The notes below the pieces were generated by a model. It was not told where the DNA came from. It ran no database searches and worked only from the letters and a program-made list of their open reading frames with translations. This document shows, one piece after another, positions 1-11,335 of a stretch of 11,335 nucleotides of DNA. Source of the stretch: a virus (lineage: Duplodnaviria > Heunggongvirae > Uroviricota > Caudoviricetes); IMG/VR virus record IMGVR_UViG_3300015174_000004, positions 1 to 11,335 of that record; one strand, given 5' to 3'. The translations under genes were made by a program, and so were the position numbers. Numbering within the stretch: the first letter of the stretch is position 1; every line of letters begins with the position of its first letter.

Positions 1-1077
1 GATGAATGGAACCAGCAGGAGGCCGCCCGCATTGCGACAGAAGCATACTCATCCTCAATGATCCAGCGCACCAACCAGATTAAAGAAAATCTTGGTTATC
101 TTGAGACTGCATGTAAAGCAGTCGCAAACTCCGCAAAATGGGCATGGGATTCCATGCTGGATATTGGCAGTGAGGCCTCCCTTGATCAAAAAATCTCAGA
201 TGTTCTACGTCAAATTGATGAAATAGAAAAAAATACCCGACCCGGAGTTTTCGGGTTAGGTGGCATTGGAGATGGCGGAGCTCAAAATAAAAAGCTGGCA
301 CGATTAAAGCAGCAATTGGGCGTACTTCAAGCAGAAAAAATTGCTCAGGACGTACTAAATTCATCAATAAACGATTACAACAAGCGACAACAGGAAGGAA
401 TTGAACTCAGACAGAGAGCAGATGCTTTTTCAAAACAATATCAGACCCGGGAGCAGCAGAGAGCTAGTGAACTTGCAAAACTGGAAAAGCTAAAGAATCA
501 GTATTCAAAGGAAGAATATAATAATCTTATCGCTCAAATAAATGAGCGTTATAAAGATCCAAAGCAACCAAAGGCGAAAGGTTATTCGGATGATGCTGCC
601 CAACGAGTGATTGATCATCTGAATCAACAGAATGCGTTACTAAGTTCACAAGCTGAATTGACCGTTAAATTAAGTTCCTCTGAACAGGAACTGGTTAAGT
701 GGCGTCAGCAGATTGCCGACCTGGAGTCACGACCGTCATCGAAATTAACCCAGGATCAGAAATCGCTTCTCTTACACCGGGAAGAAATAACCGCGTTGAT
801 GGAGAAAAATGTTGCGATTGAAAAAAATAACAGGCTAATCAAGGAATCCGCCGAAATAGCTGCATGGCGTGATTCATTGCAGGCTTCAATTGATAATCGT
901 CAGCAGGGGTATGATATTCAGATTGCTGGTTATGGGGTTGGCGATAAAAATCAGCAACGCCAGCAGGAATTACTGCGGATTGAACGTGAATATAACAATC
1001 AGCGTCTGCAACTTGAACGTGACTATGCAGATAAATCCCGTGGGATGTCAAATCATGTTTTTCAGGAGAAAATGTAG
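1..1077 (+). CDS. Phage tail tape measure protein, 5'-partial; reading frame is closed by an in-frame TAG at 1075-1077
   Basis: Frame 1 is open from base 1 (the gene starts upstream of the window). The translation is rich in Q/E/K/R with coiled-coil character, typical of tape measure proteins, and it sits immediately upstream of the M-L-K-I-J tail-tip genes. The region is AT-rich compared with L-J. Confidence 0.7.
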   Translation, partial: DEWNQQEAARIATEAYSSSMIQRTNQIKENLGYLETACKAVANSAKWAWDSMLDIGSEASLDQKISDVLRQIDEIEKNTRPGVFGLGGIGDGGAQNKKLARLKQQLGVLQAEKIAQDVLNSSINDYNKRQQEGIELRQRADAFSKQYQTREQQRASELAKLEKLKNQYSKEEYNNLIAQINERYKDPKQPKAKGYSDDAAQRVIDHLNQQNALLSSQAELTVKLSSSEQELVKWRQQIADLESRPSSKLTQDQKSLLLHREEITALMEKNVAIEKNNRLIKESAEIAAWRDSLQASIDNRQQGYDIQIAGYGVGDKNQQRQQELLRIEREYNNQRLQLERDYADKSRGMSNHVFQEKM

Positions 1078-1242
1078 GCTCTGAATGATGCTCTGGAACG
1101 AGAAAAAGAAATTGTCAGACAGAAAAACGAGCAGCTCGATATTCAGGCAGGAGACTGGGTTAGTGGTGCCTCCCAGGGATTCAATAACTGGCTGGATGAC
1201 ACTAAGGATATCAGTGAGCAGATAAAATCAACCACGACTCAG

Positions 1243-1812
1243 ATGTTTGATGGAATGACCGATGCGCTGGGTGATTTTGTCACGACAGGCAAGGCAAATT
1301 TTCGTTCTTTCGCTACTTCCGTGATTTCGGATCTTAGTCGAATAGCATTAAAGGCTTCAATTACTGGGATTTTCGACAGCATTAGTAACAGTTCTTCGGG
1401 GGGGATTTTAGGAACTATCGGGAGTGCTATTAGTAAATTTATTCCGAATGCAAAGGGCGGTGTTTATGAGTCTCCGTCATTGAACACGTATTCGAACGGT
1501 ATTTATGATTCCCCGCAATTTTTTGCTTTTGCAAAAGGGGCTGGTGTTTTTGGTGAGGCTGGTCCGGAAGCCATTATGCCATTAACACGAACTTCCGATG
1601 GTTCTCTTGGTGTCAGAGCTATTAATTGTAAAAGTGGTAATGGAGGCGGAGATATTACCTATGCCCCTGTATACCAAATCACTATTCAAAATGACGGCCA
1701 GAATGGAGAGATTGGCCCTCAGGCAATAAAAGCACTTATGGGGATGGTTGATCAGCGGGTGCAGGGCAATCTGTTAAATATGCGACGTGATGGGGGAATG
1801 TTAAGTGGCTAA
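1243..1812 (+). CDS. Tape measure protein C-terminal segment, same frame as 1-1077; the in-frame continuation actually begins at 1078 directly after the TAG
   Basis: Frame 1 has no stop from 1078 to the TAA at 1810-1812. The translation is Gly/Ser-rich and hydrophobic, as expected for a tape measure C-terminus. There is no Shine-Dalgarno sequence before the ATG at 1243, so independent initiation is unlikely. Together with 1-1077 this looks like one gene interrupted by one amber codon. Confidence 0.6.
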   Translation: MFDGMTDALGDFVTTGKANFRSFATSVISDLSRIALKASITGIFDSISNSSSGGILGTIGSAISKFIPNAKGGVYESPSLNTYSNGIYDSPQFFAFAKGAGVFGEAGPEAIMPLTRTSDGSLGVRAINCKSGNGGGDITYAPVYQITIQNDGQNGEIGPQAIKALMGMVDQRVQGNLLNMRRDGGMLSG

Positions 1813-2143
1813 TACGGAAGAATTTCACTGGTTACCAGAGGATGGAATGAAAACAGAAAATAAACCATCGATAAAAACTGTAAGATTTGGCGATGGTTAT
1901 GAGCAACGAAGTCCAAATGGACTTAATCATTCTCTGCGCGTTTTCACCTGTGATTTCAAAGTTGAGGCGAATGAACGTGATTCATTTGAAAAATTTTTAG
2001 CCCGGCATGAAGGCTATAAATCTTTTTTTTGGCGCCCGCCTGGTATTAACAGAAAAATCAGAGTGGTGTGTCGAACGTGGTCAGCGACAGAACATATCAC
2101 CTATACCGATTTTTCGTGTCAGTTTGACGAAGTGGTGATCTGA
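1805..2143 (+). CDS. M: Minor tail / tail-tip assembly protein, lambda gpM-like
   Basis: A 112-aa ORF with a GTG start at 1805, preceded by GGGGGAA, and overlapping the tape measure stop. It contains a VRFGDGY motif and has the size and position of lambda gpM. An alternative start is the ATG at 1847, which has a GAGGA upstream. Its stop TGA (2141-2143) overlaps the L start as TGATG. Confidence 0.75.
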   Translation: MANTEEFHWLPEDGMKTENKPSIKTVRFGDGYEQRSPNGLNHSLRVFTCDFKVEANERDSFEKFLARHEGYKSFFWRPPGINRKIRVVCRTWSATEHITYTDFSCQFDEVVI

Positions 2144-2841
2144 TGCAGGACATACAACAGGAAACGCTGAATGAATGCATTCGTGCGGAGCAGTCGGCCA
2201 GCGTGGTGCTCTGGGAAATCGACCTGACCGAGGTAGGCGGGGATCGCTACTTTTTCTGCAATGAGCAGAACGAGAAAGGAGAGTCTGTCACCTGGCAGAG
2301 TCGGCAGTATCAGGCCTATCCCATTCAGGGGAGTGGATTTGAGATGAACGGCAAAGGTGCCAGTGCAAGGCCAACGCTGAAAGTCTCTAATCTGCACGGC
2401 ATGGTCACCGGGATGGCGGAAGACCTGCAGAGTCTGGTCGGCGGAACGGTGGTCAGGCGTAAGGTTTACGCCCGTTTTCTGGATGCGGTGAACTTCGTCA
2501 ACGGAAACAGTGACGCCGATCCGGAGCAGGAGGTGATCAGCCGCTGGCGTATTGAGCAGTGCAGCGAACTGAGCGCGGTCAGTGCCTCCTTTGTACTGTC
2601 CACGCCGACGGAAACGGACGGTGCCGTTTTTCCGGGGCGCATCATGCTGGCTAATACCTGCACCTGGACCTATCGCGGTGATGAGTGCGGTTATCACGGT
2701 CCGGCGGTCGCGGATGAATATGACCAGCCGACATCCGAAATCACGAAGGATAAATGCAGCAAATGCCTGAGTGGCTGTAAGTTCCGCAATAATGTCGGCA
2801 ACTTTGGCGGCTTCCTTTCCATTAACAAACTTTCGCAGTAA
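2143..2841 (+). CDS. L: Minor tail protein L, lambda gpL-like
   Basis: A 232-aa ORF whose translation (MQDIQQETLNECIRAEQSASVVLWEIDLTEVGG... CSKCLSGCKFRNNVGNFGGFLSINKLSQ) matches lambda gpL as I recall it almost residue for residue. It includes the C-terminal Cys cluster. GC content rises abruptly at its start. Confidence 0.9.
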   Translation: MQDIQQETLNECIRAEQSASVVLWEIDLTEVGGDRYFFCNEQNEKGESVTWQSRQYQAYPIQGSGFEMNGKGASARPTLKVSNLHGMVTGMAEDLQSLVGGTVVRRKVYARFLDAVNFVNGNSDADPEQEVISRWRIEQCSELSAVSASFVLSTPTETDGAVFPGRIMLANTCTWTYRGDECGYHGPAVADEYDQPTSEITKDKCSKCLSGCKFRNNVGNFGGFLSINKLSQ

Positions 2842-2845
2842 TCCC

Positions 2846-3589
2846 ATGACAGAGACAGAATCAGCGATTCTGGCGCACGCCCGGCGATGTGCGCCAGCGG
2901 AGTCGTGCGGCTTCGTGGTGAGAACGTCGGAAGGGGAAAGATATTTTCCCTGCGTGAATATCTCCGGTGAGCCGGAGGATTATTTCCGGATGGCTCCGGA
3001 GGACTGGCTGCAGGCAGAAATGCAGGGTGAGATTGTGGCGCTGGTCCACAGCCACCCCGGTGGTCTGCCCTGGCTGAGTGAGGCTGACCGGCGGCTGCAG
3101 GTGCAGAGTGATTTGCCGTGGTTGCTGGTCTGCCGGGGGGCGATTCATAAGTTCCGCTGTGTGCCGCATCTCACCGGGCGGCGCTTTGAGCACGGGGTGA
3201 CGGACTGTTACACGCTGTTCCGGGATGCTTATCATCTGGCGGGGATTGAGATGCCGAATTTTCATCGCGGGGATGACTGGTGGCGTCACGGCCAGAATCT
3301 CTATCTGGATAATCTGGAGGCCACAGGGCTGTATCAGGTGCCGTTGTCATCAGCACAACCGGGCGATGTGCTGCTGTGCTGTTTTGGTTCATCGGTGCCG
3401 AATCATGCCGCCATTTACTGTGGTGACGGCGAGCTGCTGCACCATATTCCTGAACAACTGAGCAAACGAGAGAGGTATACCGACAAATGGCAGCGACGCA
3501 CACACTCCCTCTGGCGTCACCGGGCATGGCGCGAATCTGCCTTTACGGGGATTTACAACGATTTGGCCGCCGCATCGACCTGCGTGTGA
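2846..3589 (+). CDS. K: Tail-tip assembly protein K, lambda gpK-like, with an MPN/JAMM-type domain and an NlpC/P60-like domain
   Basis: A 247-aa ORF from the ATG at 2846, which lies 5 nt after the L stop. It has a JAMM-like motif (E...HSHPGGLPWLSEAD) and a papain-like Cys/His signature (TDCYTLF ... NHAAIY). A shorter alternative start is the ATG at 2990 (MAPEDW...). The six-frame ORF from 2771 overlaps L and is not the likely start. Confidence 0.8.
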   Translation: MTETESAILAHARRCAPAESCGFVVRTSEGERYFPCVNISGEPEDYFRMAPEDWLQAEMQGEIVALVHSHPGGLPWLSEADRRLQVQSDLPWLLVCRGAIHKFRCVPHLTGRRFEHGVTDCYTLFRDAYHLAGIEMPNFHRGDDWWRHGQNLYLDNLEATGLYQVPLSSAQPGDVLLCCFGSSVPNHAAIYCGDGELLHHIPEQLSKRERYTDKWQRRTHSLWRHRAWRESAFTGIYNDLAAASTCV

Positions 3590-4134
3590 AAACGGGGGCC
3601 GAAGCAGTCCGGGCGCTGACCACACAGCTTCCGGCGTTTCGTCAGAAACTGAGCGACGGCTGGTATCAGGTACGCATTGCCGGGCGTGATGCAGGTGAAA
3701 CTGAATTATCAGCCCGTCTTAATGAACCGCTGGCAAATGGTGCCGTGATCCACATTGTGCCGCGTCTGGCGGGAGCCAAAAGTGGCGGTCTTTTTCAGGC
3801 TGTGCTGGGGGCGGCGCTGATTGCGGTGGCATGGTGGAACCCTGCAGGTTGGTTGGGGGCTGCCGCAATTACAGGAATGTATGGTGCGGGGGCCAGTATG
3901 GTGCTCGGTGGTGTGGCGCAGATGCTGGCACCGAAAGCCAGAACTCCCCGTACACAGACAACGGATAACGGCAAACAGAACACCTATTTCTCCTCACTGG
4001 ATAACATGGTTGCCCAGGGCAATGTTCTGCCGGTTCTGTACGGTGAAATGCGCGTGGGGTCACGGGTGATTTCGCAGGAGATCAGCACGGCAGATGAAGG
4101 AGATGGTGGTCAGGTTGTGGTGATTGGTCGTTGA
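3487..4134 (+). CDS. I: Tail-tip assembly protein I, lambda gpI-like
   Basis: A 215-aa ORF with GAGAGAGG upstream of its ATG. It has a hydrophobic Gly/Ala-rich central segment and a C-terminus (YGEMRVGSRVISQEISTADEGDGGQVVVIGR) that resembles lambda gpI. It overlaps the 3' end of K by 103 nt in a different frame. Confidence 0.8.
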   Translation: MAATHTLPLASPGMARICLYGDLQRFGRRIDLRVKTGAEAVRALTTQLPAFRQKLSDGWYQVRIAGRDAGETELSARLNEPLANGAVIHIVPRLAGAKSGGLFQAVLGAALIAVAWWNPAGWLGAAAITGMYGAGASMVLGGVAQMLAPKARTPRTQTTDNGKQNTYFSSLDNMVAQGNVLPVLYGEMRVGSRVISQEISTADEGDGGQVVVIGR

Positions 4135-4151
4135 TGCAGAATGTTTTGTGT

Positions 4152-4173
4152 GAAACCGCCTCAGGGCGGTTTT
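4152..4173 (+). terminator. Perfect 8-9 bp hairpin (GAAACCGCC-TCAG-GGCGGTTTT) in the I-J intergenic spacer, followed by an interrupted T-tract; possible attenuator or RNA stability element
   Basis: The inverted repeat is read directly from the sequence between the I stop (4132-4134) and the J start (4195). The downstream T-run is interrupted (TTTTGTCGTTTCTGG), so termination would be partial at best. Confidence 0.3.
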
Positions 4174-4194
4174 GTCGTTTCTGGAGCGTGAGGA

Positions 4195-7100
4195 ATGGGT
4201 AAAGGCAGCAGTAAGGGGCATACCCCGCGCGAAGCGAAGGACAACCTGAAATCATCCCAGATGCTGAGCGTGATAGACGCCATCAGTGAAGGGCCGATTG
4301 AAGGTCCGGTGGACGGATTAAAAAGTGTGCTGCTGAATAGTACGCCGGTGCTGGACAGTGAGGGGAATACCAATATCTCCGGTGTCACGGTGGTGTTCCG
4401 GGCCGGTGAGCAGGAGCAGACACCGCCGGAGGGATTTGAATCCTCCGGCTCCGAGACGGTGCTGGGTACGGAAGTGAAGTACGACACGCCGATTACCCGG
4501 ACCATCACGTCTGCAAACATCGACCGTCTGCGCTTTACCTTCGGTGTGCAGGCACTGGTGGAAACCACCTCAAAGGGGGACCGGAATCCGTCGGAAGTCC
4601 GCCTGCTGGTTCAGATACAGCGTAACGGTGGCTGGGTGACGGAAAAAGACATCACCATTAAAGGCAAAACCACCTCGCAGTATCTGGCCTCGGTGGTGGT
4701 GGATAACCTGCCGCCGCGCCCGTTTAATATCCGGATGCGCAGGATGACGCCGGACAGCACCACAGACCAGCTGCAGAACAAAACGCTCTGGTCGTCATAC
4801 ACCGAAATCATCGATGTGAAACAGTGCTACCCGAACACGGCACTGGTCGGCGTACAGGTGGACTCGGAGCAGTTCGGCAGCCAGCAGGTGAGTCGTAATT
4901 ATCATCTTCGCGGGCGCATTCTGCAGGTGCCGTCGAACTATAACCCGCAGACGCGACAATACAGCGGTATCTGGGACGGAACGTTTAAGCCAGCATACAG
5001 CAACAACATGGCCTGGTGTCTGTGGGATATGCTGACCCATCCGCGCTACGGCATGGGAAAACGTCTTGGTGCGTCGGATGTGGATAAATGGGCGCTGTAT
5101 GTCATCGGCCAGTACTGCGACCAGTCGGTGCCGGACGGCTTTGGCGGCACGGAGCCGCGCATCACCTGTAATGCCTGGCTGACCACGCAGCGTAAGGCGT
5201 GGGATGTGCTCAGTGATTTCTGCTCGGCGATGCGCTGTATGCCGGTATGGAACGGGCAGACGCTGACGTTCGTGCAGGACCGACCATCAGATAAGGTGTG
5301 GACCTATAACCGCAGTAATGTGGTGATGCCGGATGATGGCGCGCCGTTCCGCTACAGCTTCAGCGCCCTGAAGGACCGCCATAATGCCGTTGAGGTGAAC
5401 TGGATTGACCCGAACAACGGCTGGGAGACGGCGACAGAGCTTGTTGAAGATACGCAGGCCATTGCCCGTTACGGTCGTAATGTCACGAAGATGGATGCCT
5501 TTGGCTGTACCAGCCGGGGGCAGGCACACCGCGCCGGGCTGTGGCTGATTAAAACGGAACTGCTGGAGACGCAGACCGTGGATTTCAGCGTGGGTGCTGA
5601 AGGGCTTCGCCATGTACCGGGCGATGTCATTGAAATCTGCGATGATGACTATGCCGGTATCAGCACCGGTGGTCGCGTGCTGGCGGTGAACAGCCAGACC
5701 CGGACGCTGACGCTCGACCGTGAAATCACGCTGCCATCCTCCGGTACCACGCTGATAAGCCTGGTTGACGGAAGTGGCAATCCGGTCAGCGTGGAGGTTC
5801 AGTCCGTCACCGACGGCGTGAAGGTAAAAGTGAGCCGTGTTCCTGACGGTGTTGCTGAATACAGCGTATGGGGGCTGAAGCTGCCGACGCTGCGCCAGCG
5901 ACTGTTCCGCTGCGTGAGTATCCGTGAGAACGACGACGGCACGTATGCCATCACCGCCGTGCAGCATGTGCCGGAAAAAGAAGCCATCGTGGATAACGGG
6001 GCGCACTTTGACGGCGACCAGAGCGGCACGGTGAATGGTGTCACGCCGCCAGCGGTGCAGCACCTGACCGCCGAAGTCACCGCAGACAGCGGGGAATATC
6101 AGGTGCTGGCGCGCTGGGACACGCCGAAGGTGGTGAAGGGCGTGAGCTTCCTGCTCCGTCTGACCGTAACAGCGGACGACGGCAGTGAGCGGCTGGTCAG
6201 CACGGCCCGGACGACGGAAACCACATACCGCTTCACGCAACTGGCGCTGGGGCGTTACACGCTGACAGTCCGGGCGGTAAATGCGTGGGGGCAGCAGGGC
6301 GATCCGGCATCGGTATCGTTCCGGATTGCGGCACCGGCAGCGCCTGTCACTATTGAACTGATACCAGGGTATTTTCAGATAACAGCGGTCCCGAAACTGG
6401 CTGTATATGACCCGACGGTGCAGTTTGAGTTCTGGTTCTCGGAAAAGCGGATTACCGATATCAGGCAGGTTGAAACCAGCGCGCGTTATCTTGGTACGGC
6501 GCTGTACTGGATAGCCGCCAGTAGCAATATTAAGCCGGGTTATGATTATTACTTTTATATCCGCAGCGTGAACACTGTTGGTAAATCGGCATTTGTGGAG
6601 GCCGTCGGTCGGGCGAGCGATGATGCGGAAGGTTATCTGAATTTTTATAAAGGGTTGATCAATAAAACGCATCTCGGCAAGGAACTGCTGGAAAACTTTG
6701 AGCTGACGGAAGATAACGCCAGCAAACTGGAGGAGTTTTCGAAAGAGTGGAAGGACGCTAACGATAAATGGAATGCCATGTGGGGCGTCAAAATTGAGCA
6801 GACCAAAGACGGCAAACATTATGTCGCGGGTATTGGCCTCAGCATGGAGGATACGGAGGAAGGCAAACTGAGCCAGTTCCTGGTTGCCGCTAACCGTATC
6901 GCGTTTATTGACCCGGCAAACGGGAATGAAACGCCGATGTTTGTGGCGCAGGGCAACCAGATATTCATGAACGACGTGTTCCTGAAACGCCTGACGGCCC
7001 CCACCATTACCAGCGGCGGTAATCCTCCGGCATTTTCCCTGACACCGGACGGGCGGCTGACGGCGAGAAATGCTGATATCAGCGGTAACGTGAATGCGAA

Positions 7101-7608
7101 CTCCGGGACGCTCAATAATGTCACGGTAAATGAAAACTGTACGATTAAGGGCATGCTGGAGGCGAACCAGGTCAGAGGTGACTTCGTTAAAACTGTATCC
7201 AAATCATTCCCGAAAAAGGCTGGTACGTGGGGTAACACGGAAACACCAAACGGGACGGTTACAGTCACCATTTACGATGATCATAACTTTGACCGCCAAA
7301 TCATTATTCCGCCCATTATTTTTAACGGTGTGGCGTATGACGATCCGGGGAGCGGTAATAACCCGGGAGGTACGCGATACACGGGTTATGGTTTTGAAGT
7401 TCGCAAAAATGGCGTATTAATCGCATCCAGAGAAACTAAAGGAGCCATTCCCGGTAGTTACAGTGCGGTTATTGATATGCCGAGTGGTGGTGGTAACGTC
7501 ACTCTGGAGTTTAAGATTTTCCAGAAAGGCAATCAGGGCGCAGGTAACATCACAGACTGTACGGTGATTGTGACCAAAAAAGCTGCTTCCGGTATCAGTA
7601 TCCGTTGA
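4195..7608 (+). CDS. J: Host specificity protein J (central tail fiber / tail tip), lambda gpJ-like
   Basis: A 1137-aa ORF with GGAG 8 nt upstream of its ATG. Its size, position after I, and N-terminal and central sequence are typical of lambda J. The last ~1 kb is visibly more AT-rich, consistent with an exchanged receptor-binding region. Confidence 0.9.
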
Positions 7609-7629
7609 AATATTTATAACCCCAATACG

Positions 7630-7657
7630 GGCGCCAGAAATGGCGCCTTTTTTATTT
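7630..7657 (+). terminator. Rho-independent terminator downstream of J
   Basis: GGCGCC-AGAAAT-GGCGCC forms a perfect GC-rich stem and is followed by TTTTTTATTT. It begins 22 nt after the J stop. Confidence 0.65.
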
Positions 7658-7668
7658 GTGGAGTGAGT

Positions 7669-10041
7669 ATGGCAGTACAGATTTCAGGTGTGCTGAAAGA
7701 TGGTGCGGGAAAACCAATACAGAACTGCACTATTCAACTGAAGGCAAAGCGTAACAGCACCACGGTACTGGTGAACACGGTGGCCTCTGAAAATCCGGAT
7801 GAAGCCGGGCGTTACAGCATGGATGTTGAGTATGGCCAGTACAGCGTTATCCTGCTGGTTGAAGGTTTTCCGCCTTCACATGCCGGAACCATTACCGTCT
7901 ATGAAGGTTCCAGACCAGGTACGCTGAATGATTTTCTCGGTGCCATGACGGAAGATGATGTCATGCCGGAGGCATTGCGTCGTTTTGAGGCAATGGTGGA
8001 AGAAGCGGCACGCAACGCTGAAGCCGCCTTTCAGAGCGCAGCGGCGGCAAAGAAATCCGAAGCTGCTGCGGCATCATCGAAGAACGCGGCGAAAAGCTCA
8101 GAAACGAATGCAGCTAACAGCGCACAGGCGGCAGCGGCCTCACAGACTGCATCGGCAAACTCCGCGACAGCAGCCCAAAAATCAGAAGCCAACGCGAAAA
8201 ATAGCGAAACAGCCGCAAAGACGAGCGAAACCAACGCGAAGTCCAGCCAGACGGCAGCGAAAACCAGCGAAACGAATGCCAAAGTCAGTGAAACTGCAGC
8301 GAAAAACAGCCAGGCTGCAGCAGCTGAAAGCGAGAGCGCAGCAGCCGGTTCTGCGACTTCAGCAGCTGGATTAGCAACTGCTGCGGCTAACAGCCAGAAA
8401 GCTGCGAAGGCGAGCGAAACTAACGCAAAGTCCAGCCAGACGGCAGCGAAGACCAGCGAAACGAATGCCAAAGCCAGCGAAACTGCGGCGAAAAGCAGTC
8501 AGGATGCAGCAGCCGAAAGCGAGAGTGCTGCAGCTGGTTCTGCAAGCGCGGCGGCTGCTTCTGCCACTGCATCAGCTAACAGTCAAAAAGCAGCAAAAAC
8601 CAGTGAAACCAACGCAAAGGTGAGCGAAACAGCGGCTGCGAACTCAGCGAAAGCATCGGCAGCAAGCCAGACGGCAGCTAAAGCAAGCGAAGATGCAGCC
8701 AGAGAGTACGCAAGCCAGGCTGCGGAGCCGTATAAATATGTCTTACAGCCGCTGCCTGATGTGTGGATACCATTTAACGATTCGCTGGATATGATTACGG
8801 GCTTTTCGCCGTCATATAAAAAGATTGTTATTGGTGATGATGAAATAACGATGCCTGGCGACAAGGTTGTTAAGTTTAAACGCGCATCGAAAGCAACCTA
8901 TATTAATAAATCTGGTGTGCTGACAGAGGCTGCCATTGACGAGCCACGGTTTGAACGTGATGGCCTGCTTATTGAGGGGCAAAGAACGAACTACATGCTC
9001 AATTCGGAAAGCCCTGCCAGTTGGGGGCGATCGTCAAATATGGATGTGCCCGAAACCGGGACGGATAGTTTTGGTTTTACCTATGGAAAGTTTGTCTGTA
9101 ACGATTCTCTGATTGGGCAAACCTCAGCCATTAATATGGCATCAATTGCTGCAACAAAGTCAGTTGATGTCTCAGGCGATAATAAACACGTGACAACCTC
9201 ATGTCGTTTTAAAACAGAACTGCAGGTAAGGTTGCGTATCCGGTTTGATAAATATGACGGTAGCGCAACAACTTTTCTTGGTGATGCGTATATTGATACA
9301 CAAACGCTTGAAATTAATATGACAGGCGGTGCTGCCTCAAGGATTACAGCGAGAGTCAGAAAGGACGAAGCTACCGGATGGATTTTTGCAGAGGCAACAA
9401 TTCAGGCAATTGATGGGGAGTTAAAAATAGGTTCTCAGATACAGTATTCTCCTAAGCAGGGCGGGGCAACCGTATCTGGTGACTATATTTATCTGGCCAC
9501 CCCACAAGTAGAAAATGGGCCTTGTGTATCATCTTTTATTATATCAGGAACGACGGCGGCGACCCGCGCAAGCGATATAGTTACAGTTCCAATTAAGAAT
9601 AATCTTTATAATCTTCCTTTTACGGTTCTTTGTGAGGTACATAAGAACTGGTATAAAACGCCAAATGCAGCGCCGCGTGTTTTTGACACCGGCGGTCATC
9701 AAACCGGAGCGGCTATTATTCTTGGCTTCGGTTCTTCAGCAGATTACGACGGATTTCCTTATTGCGATATTGGAGGAGCTAACAGACGGGTAAACGAAAA
9801 CGCATCGCTTGAAAAAATGGTTATGGGGATGCGTGTAAAGTCAGATCAGTCTACGTGCTCAGCAAGTAACGGGCGTATATCCAGCGAAACAAAAACCACA
9901 TGGTCCTGTATTCAGAACACCGCAATTATCCGTATTGGAGGCCAGACTACAGCCGGGTTACGTCATTTATTTGGTCATGTCAGGAATTTCAGAATATGGC
10001 ACAAGGCATTGACTGATGCTCAGGTGGGGGAGTCAATCTAA
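7669..10041 (+). CDS. stf: Side tail fiber protein: Stf-like N-terminus, Ala/Ser/Thr-rich repeat shaft, and a C-terminal domain with a LamG/concanavalin-like signature
   Basis: The ATG at 7669 is preceded by GGAG (7660-7663). The N-terminus (MAVQISGVLKDGAGKPIQNCTIQLKAKRNSTTV...GRYSMDVEYGQYSVIL) resembles lambda Stf. The middle is built from 7-aa repeats. The C-terminus ends in ...LFGHVRNFRIWHKALTDAQVGESI, which looks like the terminal strand of a LamG-like jelly-roll; this is a motif-level inference. The six-frame track starts at GTG 7663, but the ATG at 7669 is more likely. Confidence 0.85.
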   Translation: MAVQISGVLKDGAGKPIQNCTIQLKAKRNSTTVLVNTVASENPDEAGRYSMDVEYGQYSVILLVEGFPPSHAGTITVYEGSRPGTLNDFLGAMTEDDVMPEALRRFEAMVEEAARNAEAAFQSAAAAKKSEAAAASSKNAAKSSETNAANSAQAAAASQTASANSATAAQKSEANAKNSETAAKTSETNAKSSQTAAKTSETNAKVSETAAKNSQAAAAESESAAAGSATSAAGLATAAANSQKAAKASETNAKSSQTAAKTSETNAKASETAAKSSQDAAAESESAAAGSASAAAASATASANSQKAAKTSETNAKVSETAAANSAKASAASQTAAKASEDAAREYASQAAEPYKYVLQPLPDVWIPFNDSLDMITGFSPSYKKIVIGDDEITMPGDKVVKFKRASKATYINKSGVLTEAAIDEPRFERDGLLIEGQRTNYMLNSESPASWGRSSNMDVPETGTDSFGFTYGKFVCNDSLIGQTSAINMASIAATKSVDVSGDNKHVTTSCRFKTELQVRLRIRFDKYDGSATTFLGDAYIDTQTLEINMTGGAASRITARVRKDEATGWIFAEATIQAIDGELKIGSQIQYSPKQGGATVSGDYIYLATPQVENGPCVSSFIISGTTAATRASDIVTVPIKNNLYNLPFTVLCEVHKNWYKTPNAAPRVFDTGGHQTGAAIILGFGSSADYDGFPYCDIGGANRRVNENASLEKMVMGMRVKSDQSTCSASNGRISSETKTTWSCIQNTAIIRIGGQTTAGLRHLFGHVRNFRIWHKALTDAQVGESI
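8221..8598 (+). repeat. Two tandem 189-bp (63-aa) imperfect direct repeats inside stf, each built from nine 21-bp (7-aa) sub-repeats; degenerate copies extend from about 8040 to 8700
   Basis: Unit 1 (8221-8409) encodes TSETNAKSSQTAAKTSETNAKVSETAAKNSQAAAAESESAAAGSATSAAGLATAAANSQKAAK. Unit 2 (8410-8598) encodes ASETNAKSSQTAAKTSETNAKASETAAKSSQDAAAESESAAAGSASAAAASATASANSQKAAK. A third, partial unit starts at 8599. Confidence 0.8.
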
Positions 10042-10322
10042 TGAAAGATTTAACACTCAAATTTGAAGACAGGGCCGACTTTTCGGCCTTTATGGAGAGT
10101 ATTGGCTATTATGATGACGAGTCGATGCAGGATGATATTCTTATCGACGTGATAGGTAACGCGTACAAAGAAACCGGAGAACTGACTGAAGATGGCGAAC
10201 CGGTATGTGTTAAGGAAGACGGATATTTTGTAAACGTGCGCATCATTAATGATTCGCAAATATCGTCATTATTCGATGAGTACGTGGTTGCTGTTGAGCA
10301 TCAACTTCGTGGCTGGATGTGA
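10041..10322 (+). CDS. Hypothetical small, highly acidic protein (93 aa) of unknown function, translationally coupled to both neighbours
   Basis: Its ATG overlaps the stf stop as TAATG (10039-10043). Its TGA stop (10320-10322) lies inside the Shine-Dalgarno sequence (GAGGAAG) of the next gene. It has roughly 22 Asp/Glu against about 8 basic residues. I recognise no homologue. Confidence 0.55.
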   Translation: MKDLTLKFEDRADFSAFMESIGYYDDESMQDDILIDVIGNAYKETGELTEDGEPVCVKEDGYFVNVRIINDSQISSLFDEYVVAVEHQLRGWM

Positions 10323-10331
10323 GGAAGAAAA

Positions 10332-11268
10332 ATGGCTACATCGACAGTAATTCCTGATGACATCAAAACGCTAAAATCCGACGTTAGCAAATTAAAAAAC
10401 GATCAAGGAAGCTACGCAACAAAATTATATGTAGACAGCAAAGATGAAATCGTTGGTGACTGGTCTGCTTCATGGTATCAGCAGGTATTGCCAACTAGCG
10501 GAGCTATATTTGGGAGAAAACTCCGCTCAACTCACAGGACGGCAGGTGTTGAGGATGCGTATTGCGAACTATACCTCAAAAAATGGATAGACAGTCCAGG
10601 TAACGCAATGGCGCGCCTTAACCTGAACGATAACGGGACAAACATTTGCTGGGACTTTACCAACCTTTATGGCGGTACGATGATTTTTCCCGGTGACAGC
10701 GGATACCTCAAAATGGGTAACTGCCTTATGTCATACAGCAAGCGTGGAAGTAACGCGCTTATTAAATTTGATTACACCGACACATTACAGATCAAATATG
10801 CCAATCATGGGTCAACCATTACATTAAACACACAGGTAACCGCTTATGCTGGTGTTACTGCTCAATTGTGGGGCAACTCCAGCCGTCCTGTTGTTTATGA
10901 AGTCGGTGTTGATGGTGGCGCTTATATGTTCTATGCGCAGAAAAATACCGATAACACCTATATGTTAAGCGTTAATGGTGCATGTCATGCCACAGCATTT
11001 AACCAGCATTCAGACCGGGATCTGAAAGACAACATTCAGGTGATCGATAAAGCAACCGACCACATCCGTAAAATGAACGGCTATACATACACGCTTAAAG
11101 AAAACGGTATGCCCTATGCTGGTGTCATTGCACAGGAAGCTCTGGAAGCAATCCCAGAAGTTGTAGGTTCCGCAATGAAATATCAGGACGGTGCAAGCGG
11201 ATCGGAAGGTGAAGAAGGTGAACGTTATTACACAGTAGATTATTCTGGTGTTACTGGCTTGCTTGTTC
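10332..11268 (+). CDS. Short tail fiber / receptor-binding-like protein with a C-terminal intramolecular chaperone (peptidase S74-like) domain; 3'-truncated at the end of native sequence
   Basis: The ATG at 10332 follows GAGGAAG. The C-terminal region (HSDRDLKDNIQVIDKATDHIRKMNGYTYTL...YAGVIAQEALEAIPEVV) matches the hallmark of endosialidase/T5 pb1-type self-cleaving chaperone domains. It has a Ser-x4-Lys pair (S227 at 11010-11012, K232 at 11025-11027). The apparent end of the ORF (IGRASCRERV, stop at 11301-11303) is encoded by adapter sequence, so the true C-terminus is missing. Confidence 0.7.
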
Positions 11269-11335
11269 AGATCGGAAGAGCGTCGTGTAGGGAAAGAGTG
11301 TAGATCTCGGTGGTCGCCGTATCATTAAAAAAAAA
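11269..11335 (+). other. Non-biological sequence: Illumina TruSeq adapter read-through (11269-11326) followed by a 9-nt poly-A (11327-11335)
   Basis: The 58 nt AGATCGGAAGAGCGTCGTGTAGGGAAAGAGTGTAGATCTCGGTGGTCGCCGTATCATT is the standard Illumina adapter-trimming sequence, which is the reverse complement of the universal P5 adapter. It is followed by nine A's at the contig terminus. Confidence 0.92.

What the first reader, a model, noticed from the sequence alone, without database searches (positions are those of the whole stretch)
6600..7608. Composition drops in the 3' end of J, suggesting a swapped receptor-binding region
Most of J is GC-rich, with long runs of GCC/GGC/CTG codons. The last ~1 kb is visibly AT-richer. 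In lambda-like J proteins the C-terminal ~150-250 residues determine receptor specificity (LamB for lambda) and are a known recombination hotspot. This C-terminus (…[20 protein letters not shown]…[19 protein letters not shown]) probably targets a different receptor than lambda's.
Basis: partly seen in the sequence, partly recalled or inferred. Interest (0 to 1): 0.45.

Follow-up and report, generated by a model that had tools for sequence, protein, structure and literature searches.

The report
Phage 434-type receptor tip on J
The tail-tip gene J of this E. coli prophage does become AT-richer towards its end, and its last ~160 residues are the well-known phage-434-type receptor-binding module (OmpC-type, not lambda's LamB-type), so the finding is real but ordinary.

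Summary
The GC drop is real. J (4195-7608) has GC 0.597 up to window ~6344 and 0.492 after it (LR 35 against at most 19 in codon shuffles). It is not uniform. It also occurs in lambda's own J and in all nine other J alleles examined, so it does not mark a swap. The real swap relative to lambda covers only aa ~961-1137 (7075-7605). There identity to lambda falls from 97-98% to 36% aa, with indels at the four known loop hot-spots. This module is 93% identical to phage 434 J. An 857-nt tract (7000-7856) is 100% identical to phage Tritos, a prophage of E. coli LF82. The module occurs in 2113 of 5426 complete E. coli genomes. Phage 434 and lambda h434 use OmpC, so OmpC is the inferred receptor; this was not tested. 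Modular exchange of this "specificity region" has already been published. A second, lineage-specific mosaic tract lies at 6295-6795. The window's tape-measure gene carries an in-frame stop, so this prophage copy may be defective. Verdict: already known, low interest.

The parts
4195..7608 (+). Gene J (tail tip attachment / central tail fibre protein), 1137 aa, intact ORF
   Evidence: ORF list and translation. NCBIfam lambda_TipJ scores 2281.8 bits against a cutoff of 1950. 87% aa identity to lambda J over the full length. Identical to gpJ of the E. coli CH4796 prophage.
4195..6339 (+). GC-rich part of J: hub domains plus the first FNIII/Ig domain (aa 1-715)
   Evidence: GC 0.596, GC3 0.72. Pfam FNIII-A_GpJ 86-207, Phage-tail_3 330-498, Ig_J 610-714. 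96-99% nt identity to lambda, 434 and Tritos.
6340..6648 (+). Second FNIII/Ig domain (aa 716-818); the GC change point (window ~6344) lies at its start
   Evidence: Pfam Ig_J_second 716-818. Change point at J nt 2150. GC 0.489, GC3 0.52.
6295..6795 (+). Lineage-specific divergent tract (FNIII-2 plus alpha-helical shaft). This is a second mosaic segment, separate from the receptor-binding swap
   Evidence: 9-21 differences per 100 nt against lambda, 434 and Tritos alike, compared with 0-8 per 100 nt across almost all of the rest of J upstream. dS ~0.45 against ~0.12 in the hub. At most 89.5% identity to any phage record, but >=99% in 169 E. coli genome records.
6619..6777 (+). Alpha-helical shaft (aa 809-861 by lambda numbering)
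   Evidence: Domain limits are from the lambda gpJ cryo-EM paper PMC11101478. There are no indels against lambda in this part.
6796..7074 (+). Conserved beta-prism fibre (central straight fibre). It is lambda-like and could serve as the left homology arm for exchange of the tip
   Evidence: 97% aa (aa 861-960) and 96-97% nt identity to lambda. Pfam Phage_Tail_Tip 845-972.
7075..7605 (+). Specificity region (aa 961-1137): 434-class receptor-binding module
   Evidence: Identity to lambda falls to 67.5% aa (961-1000) and 35.9% aa (1001-1137). Identity to 434 is 87.5% and 93.4% for the same spans. nt identity to lambda is ~44-57%. GC 0.471, GC3 0.49. This matches the 'specificity region 960-1132' of PMC6646904.
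7195..7602 (+). Ig-like/beta-sandwich receptor-binding domain proper (aa 1001-1136)
   Evidence: Pfam Ig_GpJ_C PF12421, 88.9 bits against a cutoff of 26.2. The AF2 model is all-beta with pLDDT 79-96 in this part. Best Foldseek hits are the A8 gpJ-OmpC complex 9wcb (E 2e-15) and the lambda gpJ-LamB complex 8xcj (E 4.5e-15).
7228..7233 (+). Loop indel 1: +2 aa (W1012, G1013) relative to lambda
   Evidence: Alignment. Lies in a predicted inter-strand loop. Corresponds to the published indel hot-spot at lambda residue 1012.
7354..7371 (+). Loop indel 2: +6 aa (GNNPGG, aa 1054-1059) relative to lambda
   Evidence: Alignment. Predicted loop. Corresponds to the published hot-spot at 1048-1049. The 434 J has a long loop that is predicted to contact OmpC (PMC12502783).
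7444..7446 (+). Loop indel 3: +1 aa (A1084) relative to lambda
   Evidence: Alignment. Predicted loop. Corresponds to the published hot-spot at 1077-1078.
7525..7539 (+). Loop indel 4: 4 aa shorter than lambda (around aa 1111-1115)
   Evidence: Alignment. Predicted loop. Corresponds to the published hot-spot at 1107.
7000..7856 (+). 857-nt tract 100% identical to phage Tritos (E. coli LF82 prophage 3). It spans the end of the fibre, the whole receptor-binding module, the J stop, the terminator and the first ~195 nt of stf
   Evidence: Mismatch map against L003. The flanking sequence differs by ~2-10%.
7629..7658 (+). Intrinsic-terminator-like hairpin plus T-run just after the J stop
   Evidence: Consensus scan: 8-bp stem, 6 GC pairs. 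Phage 434 has a terminator annotated at the equivalent place.

Best explanation
The window is the tail-tip module of a lambdoid E. coli prophage. Its J protein has a lambda-type hub and fibre (96-99% nt identity). Its last ~175 residues are the phage-434 class of the exchangeable 'specificity region'. This region is a trimeric beta-sandwich receptor-binding domain whose four distal loops differ in length from lambda's. By homology to phage 434 and lambda h434, the tip most likely binds the OmpC porin trimer instead of LamB. Binding would trigger the same cascade solved for lambda: the tip opens, the beta-prism twists, the helical shaft flips and the tail tube opens. Shown here: the allele class, the breakpoints, the fold, the discrete class structure and the recent recombination tract. 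Inferred, not shown: OmpC binding. The GC drop is a separate matter. It starts at the FNIII-1/FNIII-2 boundary in every J allele. It reflects the end of the GC-rich, slowly evolving L-K-I-J-hub core and the start of the distal, frequently exchanged part of J. The 434-class tip is only its AT-richest piece.
For: J identity and domain layout. Breakpoint mapping against lambda, 434 and Tritos. Discrete allele classes in phage records: 74 at >=90% aa, none at 60-90%, 169 below 60%, with lambda at 36.7%. Domain-wise phylogenetic incongruence among 10 alleles: for example, phage 1W has a lambda-like hub with a BP-4795-like tip, and PhiR40_1 has a lambda-like hub with Stx-type FN2, fibre and tip. An 857-nt tract is identical to Tritos. 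The module is present in 2113 of 5426 complete E. coli genomes. Purifying selection against 434: dN/dS 0.12, dS 0.31. Fold: AF2 mean pLDDT 80, with top Foldseek hits to the gpJ-OmpC and gpJ-LamB complexes. All four indels against lambda fall in predicted loops and at the published hot-spots. Receptor: 434 uses OmpC, and replacing lambda J with 434's gives OmpC binding (PMC11101478 and PMC3509688). Two other J tip classes (A8, phi330) also use OmpC. GC drop is family-wide.
Against: No adsorption or binding data exist for this exact allele. It differs from 434 at 9 of 137 residues in the receptor-binding domain and 19 from aa 940 on, including G1115R in loop 4. Single J substitutions can change porin use in lambda and phi21. 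The window's tape-measure gene has an in-frame TAG, so this particular prophage may not make infectious tails. The AF2 model is a monomer of a trimeric protein. OmpC dependence of 434 was taken from secondary citations, not from primary data read here.
Confidence: 0.85

Rival explanations
1. One reading: the whole AT-richer last ~1 kb (6600-7608) is one foreign block that was swapped in, and the composition shift marks its boundary.
For: GC and GC3 do fall significantly. The 434-class tip is the AT-richest of the alleles at aa 998-1047 (0.44-0.45 against 0.50-0.59).
Against: The change point is at 6344, not 6600. Lambda and all other alleles share it. 6796-7074 is 96-97% lambda-like. The region has at least three segments with separate histories: 6295-6795, 6796-~7000 and 7000-7856.
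Confidence: 0.07
2. The tip is 434-like in sequence but recognises something else. This could be a restricted subset of OmpC variants, or another porin such as OmpF or LamB, because of its 9 substitutions against 434.
For: The sub-allele is a minority form: >=99% nt in 45 records, against 2059 records at 90-95%. The gpJ chimeras A8 and 1A2 discriminate between OmpC variants. One to four J mutations shift porin use in phi21 and lambda.
Against: 93% identity with no indels relative to 434. Most differences lie in predicted strands, not in the four loops. dN/dS of 0.12 indicates conservation. Tritos, with an identical tip, plaques on K-12 MG1655 hsdR- (PMC9928086), as 434 does on K-12.
Confidence: 0.15
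3. This copy is a relic. The prophage is tail-defective, so J here has no current function in adsorption and is intact only because the inactivation is recent.
For: CAG to TAG at window 1075 truncates the tape-measure protein relative to the 99.9%-identical CH4796 prophage. There are 9 further substitutions clustered in 1-1194.
Against: J, stf and the other tail genes are intact, and J is identical to CH4796. The stop could be a sequencing error or could be suppressed. This rival concerns this copy only. It does not change what the module is.
Confidence: 0.3
4. The low GC merely reflects the amino-acid composition of fibre and Ig domains, with no evolutionary signal.
For: The drop coincides with a domain boundary and is shared by all alleles.
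Against: GC2 barely changes (0.46 to 0.42-0.45) while GC3 falls from 0.72-0.73 to 0.47-0.55. The shift is therefore mainly at synonymous sites.
Confidence: 0.1

Closest known systems
Phage 434 J (central tail fibre, UMO75286.1) and the h434 host-range allele of lambda h434 imm21
   Same: Same length (1137 aa). 94.1% nt identity over the whole gene. 93.4% aa identity in the receptor-binding domain with no indels. Terminator after the J stop in both.
   Different: 19 aa differences from aa 940 on. A different FNIII-2/shaft allele: ~87% nt in FN2 alone (aa 716-818), 82-92% across windows 6295-6795. 434 has lom downstream of J, whereas here stf follows directly.
Phage Tritos (E. coli LF82 prophage 3) J, and phage HannyBb J
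   Same: Receptor-binding module 100% identical, within an 857-nt identical tract with Tritos. Same gene order of J, 792-aa stf, 93-aa ORF and tail fibre.
   Different: FNIII-2/shaft tract only 82-89% identical. Tritos has a different tape measure and M: its match to the window starts at 2191.
Lambda J (LamB-binding; PDB 8xcj, 8xck, 8iyk)
   Same: Same architecture. 98% aa identity over aa 1-700 and 97% over aa 861-960. Same fold of the tip. GC change point at the same position.
   Different: The tip is 36% identical, with four loop indels. Lambda's tip has GC 0.545 and GC3 0.61, against 0.468 and 0.47 here. Receptor is LamB, against inferred OmpC here.
A8 gpJ chimera (PDB 9wca; 9wcb in complex with OmpC) and the natural 1W / BP-4795 / YYZ-2008 class
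   Same: Same fold: it is the best structural match. It uses OmpC. It shares the neck motif [25 protein letters not shown] with this allele.
   Different: Only 43-49% identity in the tip. Different loop lengths. It is a separate allele class.
The 'specificity region' module of J homologues (Maddamsetti et al. 2018, PMC6646904)
   Same: Same boundaries (residues 960-1132), the same four indel hot-spots, and the same conclusion that the region recombines independently of the rest of J.
   Different: Nothing of substance. This window is one more instance.

Membership tests
Lambda-type tip attachment protein J (NCBIfam NF049904 lambda_TipJ) | Full-length match above the curated cutoff | tested here: met
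   2281.8 bits against a cutoff of 1950, covering aa 1-1137.
Lambda-type tip attachment protein J (NCBIfam NF049904 lambda_TipJ) | Domain order of hub, two FNIII/Ig domains, tail-tip fibre and C-terminal Ig receptor-binding domain | tested here: met
   Pfam PF24801, PF13550, PF24421, PF24489, PF09327 and PF12421, in that order and all above cutoff.
Lambda-type tip attachment protein J (NCBIfam NF049904 lambda_TipJ) | Genomic context TMP-M-L-K-I-J | tested here: met
   ORFs in the window and annotation of the 99.9%-identical CH4796 prophage.
434-class J specificity module | High identity to phage 434 J across aa ~961-1137 with the same loop lengths | tested here: met
   87.5% (961-1000) and 93.4% (1001-1137) aa identity with no indels. 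It falls in the >=90% band, which a gap with no records at 60-90% separates from all other classes.
434-class J specificity module | OmpC-dependent adsorption | not testable with these tools
   Known for 434 and lambda h434 from the literature. No data exist for this allele or for Tritos.
Lambda LamB-binding tip allele | High identity to lambda J aa 985-1132 | tested here: not met
   35.9% aa and ~44% nt identity, with four indels.
A8 / 1W-type OmpC-binding tip allele (PDB 9wcb) | High identity to the A8 tip | tested here: not met
   48-49% identity in the Foldseek alignment, and 43-46% to natural members of the class. The fold is the same (TM 0.68, E 2e-15).
Diversity-generating-retroelement target (a considered alternative source of tip variability) | A template repeat matching the variable region elsewhere in the locus | tested here: not met
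   No repeat involving 6600-7608 in the window. No Rfam family matched.

The most novel reading that the evidence does not exclude
The Tritos-type sub-allele of the 434 class is present at >=99% nt in only ~45 of 5426 genomes and has 9 tip substitutions against 434. It could have a shifted specificity: a different subset of OmpC variants, or dual porin use. The lineage-specific FNIII-2/shaft tract (6295-6795) could co-adapt signal transmission to that tip. Neither possibility is excluded by the evidence, and neither is indicated by it.
Probability: 0.1. Interest if true: 0.3.

Novelty: already known. Interest (0 to 1): 0.12.

Why it matters
The finding matters little beyond annotation. It lets the prophage's host-range determinant be labelled '434-class, probable OmpC binder' instead of 'lambda J-like'. 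It also gives a clean worked example that breakpoints in J follow domain boundaries: FNIII-1/FNIII-2, shaft/fibre and fibre/tip. That is useful for people who build chimeric gpJ delivery particles. It also shows that a GC shift inside J is not a reliable sign of a tip swap, because lambda itself has the shift.

Tried and rejected
1. Phage phi21 as a native OmpC user with a related tip. Rejected: phi21 natively uses LamB and only evolves OmpC use.
2. Whether the engineered OmpC-specific chimera 1A2 is 434-class. Its sequence is not in the supplementary files held.
3. Receptor data for the PhiR (ECOR-derived) phages and for Tritos and Perceval. None is reported in the papers found.
4. phi330, an OmpC user, as a member of this class. 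Rejected: its tip is only 35-40% identical to 434's.
5. The end of the match to phage vB_EcoS-683R6 at window 6246 as a breakpoint near the GC change point. Rejected: the match stops because the record ends there.
6. A DGR-type template repeat or a structured RNA in or near the region. None found.
7. The large protein search with the 161-aa tip. It returned mostly fragments from Escherichia, Shigella and E. albertii and added little beyond Pfam PF12421 labels.
8. No paper describing PDB 9wca/9wcb was found in the library.
Full report
**What the window is.** The 11,335-nt window carries, on the + strand:
- the 3' part of a tape-measure gene (to 1812);
- an M-like gene, then L, K and I;
- a 1137-aa J gene (4195-7608);
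- a 792-aa side-tail-fibre gene (7663-10041);
- a 93-aa ORF and another tail-fibre gene.

The window is 99.9% identical over 1-11270 to a prophage of E. coli CH4796. It is 99.6-99.8% identical to prophages in three other complete genomes. J itself is identical to the CH4796 copy. J scores 2281.8 bits on NCBIfam lambda_TipJ against a cutoff of 1950. It has the full Pfam layout:
- FNIII-A, aa 86-207;
- Phage-tail_3, aa 330-498;
- Ig_J, aa 610-714;
- Ig_J_second, aa 716-818;
- Phage_Tail_Tip, aa 845-972;
- Ig_GpJ_C receptor-binding domain, aa 1001-1136.

**The observation.** The GC drop is real.
- J nt 1-2100 has GC 0.594 (GC3 0.73).
- The contrast between the 5' 2100 nt and the 3' 1311 nt gives p = 9e-8.
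- A likelihood scan puts the single best change point at J nt 2150, which is window 6344. GC goes from 0.597 to 0.492 there.
- The likelihood ratio is 35.3, against a maximum of 19.4 in 300 codon shuffles.

It falls exactly at the boundary between the two FNIII/Ig domains. It is not uniform:

| Window segment | GC |
|---|---|
| 6295-6744 | 0.498 |
| 6745-7122 | 0.545 |
| 7123-7605 | 0.468 |

GC2 hardly moves, while GC3 falls to 0.47-0.55. The shift is mainly synonymous.

**Why the drop does not mark the swap.**
- Lambda's own J has its best change point at nt 2175 and the same trough at codons 725-850. Only its last 500 nt stay higher, at 0.545.
- I aligned ten J alleles by codon: window, lambda, 434, Tritos, 1W, PhiR40_1, BP-4795, Stx2a_WGPS2, YYZ-2008 and 204576. 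Every one falls from ~0.60-0.67 to ~0.44-0.57 after codon ~700-750. This includes the Stx-phage backbones that are only ~72% identical in the hub.
- At the scale of the window, L-K-I-J(hub) (2143-6339; GC 0.555-0.596) is a GC-rich island. It sits between an AT-richer tape measure and M (0.41-0.44) and AT-richer fibre genes (0.42-0.45). The 3' end of J returns towards its neighbours and towards the window mean of 0.508.
- From my own knowledge, not tested here: lambda's left arm has long been known to be GC-rich.

**Where the swap really is.** Sliding identity along the codon alignment gives:

| J residues (window nt) | Identity to lambda |
|---|---|
| aa 1-700 | 98% aa, 96-99% nt |
| aa 701-860 (about 6295-6795) | 87.5% aa |
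| aa 861-960 (6796-7074) | 97% aa |
| aa 961-1000 | 67.5% aa |
| aa 1001-1137 | 35.9% aa, ~44% nt |

These boundaries are the same as the published 'specificity region', residues 960-1132 (PMC6646904).

The four indels between this allele and lambda are:
- +2 aa at 1012-1013;
- +6 aa at 1054-1059;
- +1 aa at 1084;
- -4 aa around 1111-1115.

They coincide with the four indel hot-spots reported in that paper (1012, 1048-1049, 1077-1078, 1107). They fall in inter-strand loops of my AF2 model.

**Which allele it is.**
- The tip is 93.4% identical to phage 434 J over aa 1001-1137, with no indels.
- It is 100% identical to the tips of phage Tritos (prophage 3 of E. coli LF82) and phage HannyBb.
- A tblastn of the last 161 aa against 50,697 phage records gave a bimodal result. 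There were 74 records at >=90%, none between 60 and 90%, and 169 below 60%.
- The records below 60% include the BP-4795/1W/A8 class at 43-46%, the WGPS2 class at ~41% and lambda at 36.7%.
- In complete E. coli genomes the tip DNA is present in 2113 of 5426 genomes. 45 records are at >=99% and 2059 at 90-95%.
- No 434-class tip has a solved structure. The nearest are the A8 gpJ chimera (9wca; 9wcb in complex with OmpC) and lambda gpJ (8xck; 8xcj in complex with LamB).
- An AF2 model of aa 955-1137 has mean pLDDT 80, with 79-96 in the domain. It is all-beta and retrieves exactly those four entries at E ~1e-15 and TM 0.68.

**Evidence for modular exchange.**
- An 857-nt tract (7000-7856) is identical to Tritos, in a background of ~2-10% divergence. 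It covers the tip, the J stop, a terminator-like hairpin (7629-7648) and the first ~195 nt of stf.
- Domain-wise identity matrices are incongruent. Phage 1W has a lambda-like hub and fibre (94-95%) but a BP-4795-like tip (77%).
- PhiR40_1 has a lambda-like hub but Stx-type FNIII-2, fibre and tip.
- Phage 204576 has an Stx-type hub, a lambda-type FNIII-2 and a WGPS2-type tip.
- The window itself has a second mosaic tract at 6295-6795. It differs equally (9-21 differences per 100 nt; dS ~0.45 against ~0.12 in the hub) from lambda, 434 and Tritos. Its identity to any phage record is at most 89.5%, yet it is >=99% in 169 E. coli genome records.

**Mechanism.**
- Established in the literature: phage 434 uses OmpC, and replacing lambda J by 434's makes lambda bind OmpC (PMC11101478, PMC3509688).
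- For lambda, the trimeric tip inserts four loops into the porin. Binding spreads the tip, twists the beta-prism, flips the helical shaft (aa 809-861) and opens the tube.
- Two other tip classes also use OmpC: A8, and phi330 of an EHEC phage.
- Inferred here: this tip binds OmpC and drives the same cascade, because the shaft and prism are lambda-like.
- Supporting the inference: dN/dS against 434 is 0.12. Most of the 9 tip differences lie in predicted strands. Tritos, with the same tip, plaques on K-12.
- Not shown: binding itself, and which OmpC variants are accepted.

**Caveat on this copy.** The window's tape-measure gene has CAG to TAG at 1075-1077 relative to CH4796. There are 9 more substitutions clustered in 1-1194. 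If the stop is real, this prophage probably cannot build tails. That bears on whether this J is in use, not on what it is.

**Verdict.**
The conclusion is right: this is a non-lambda, exchangeable tip with a different receptor. The compositional argument is weak and the extent was overestimated.
- The object is a member of a well-documented allele class that has identical copies in public phage and genome records. Novelty: already known. Interest: low.

Noticed in passing
window 1075-1077 (and 1-1194): There is an in-frame TAG in the tape-measure gene where the 99.9%-identical CH4796 prophage has CAG (Gln) and an intact 1077-aa protein. Ten of the fifteen substitutions against CH4796 within 1-11270 cluster in 1-1194. 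Either the prophage is tail-defective or this is an assembly error.
   Followed up: partly
window ~2121-2191 (M/L junction): A mosaic joint coincides with a GC jump from 0.41 (M-like gene) to 0.555 (L). Lambda-like phages (Tritos, ev207, PhiR phages) match the window only from 2121-2191 onward. The AT-rich tape measure and M match other phages instead (Salmonella phage SPF_0923, vB_EcoS-683R6).
   Followed up: partly
window 7609-7662: There is no lom gene between J and stf, unlike lambda, 434, BP-4795, WGPS2 and YYZ-2008. Only a terminator-like hairpin (7629-7648) separates J from the 792-aa stf, as in Tritos.
   Followed up: partly
window 8080-8700 (inside stf, 7663-10041): A strongly A-rich stretch (AT skew 0.5-0.6) contains 21-nt periodic direct repeats and a 189-nt duplication. 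It encodes Ala/Ser/Thr/Glu/Lys heptads (…AAKTSETNAKSSQT…). This is presumably the proximal coiled coil of the side fibre.
   Followed up: partly
window 11271-11335 and ORF 10332-11303: Identity to CH4796 and Tritos ends abruptly at 11270. The distal tail-fibre ORF, which has a Peptidase_S74 chaperone domain at aa 227-278, ends at 323 aa here against 346 aa in CH4796. This is another host-range joint at the edge of the window.
   Followed up: no
window 5287-6819 (- strand): A 510-aa antisense ORF lies inside J and ends where GC falls. It is most likely a by-product of the high GC3 of the sense frame and not a gene.
   Followed up: no
window 10041-10322: A 93-aa ORF between stf and the distal fibre gene has no Pfam match. 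It is conserved in Tritos and CH4796, where it is annotated as a hypothetical protein.
   Followed up: no
L004 (E. coli CH4796) 15060-17270: The sitABCD iron/manganese transporter operon lies immediately downstream of the tail-fibre genes of the near-identical prophage. This resembles the sit moron described for the LF82 prophage Perceval.
   Followed up: no
J tip alleles in L005-L010 and PDB 9wcb: At least three tip classes that are mutually only 35-49% identical (434, A8/1W-like, phi330) all use OmpC. Tip class therefore does not map one-to-one to receptor among lambdoid J proteins.
   Followed up: partly
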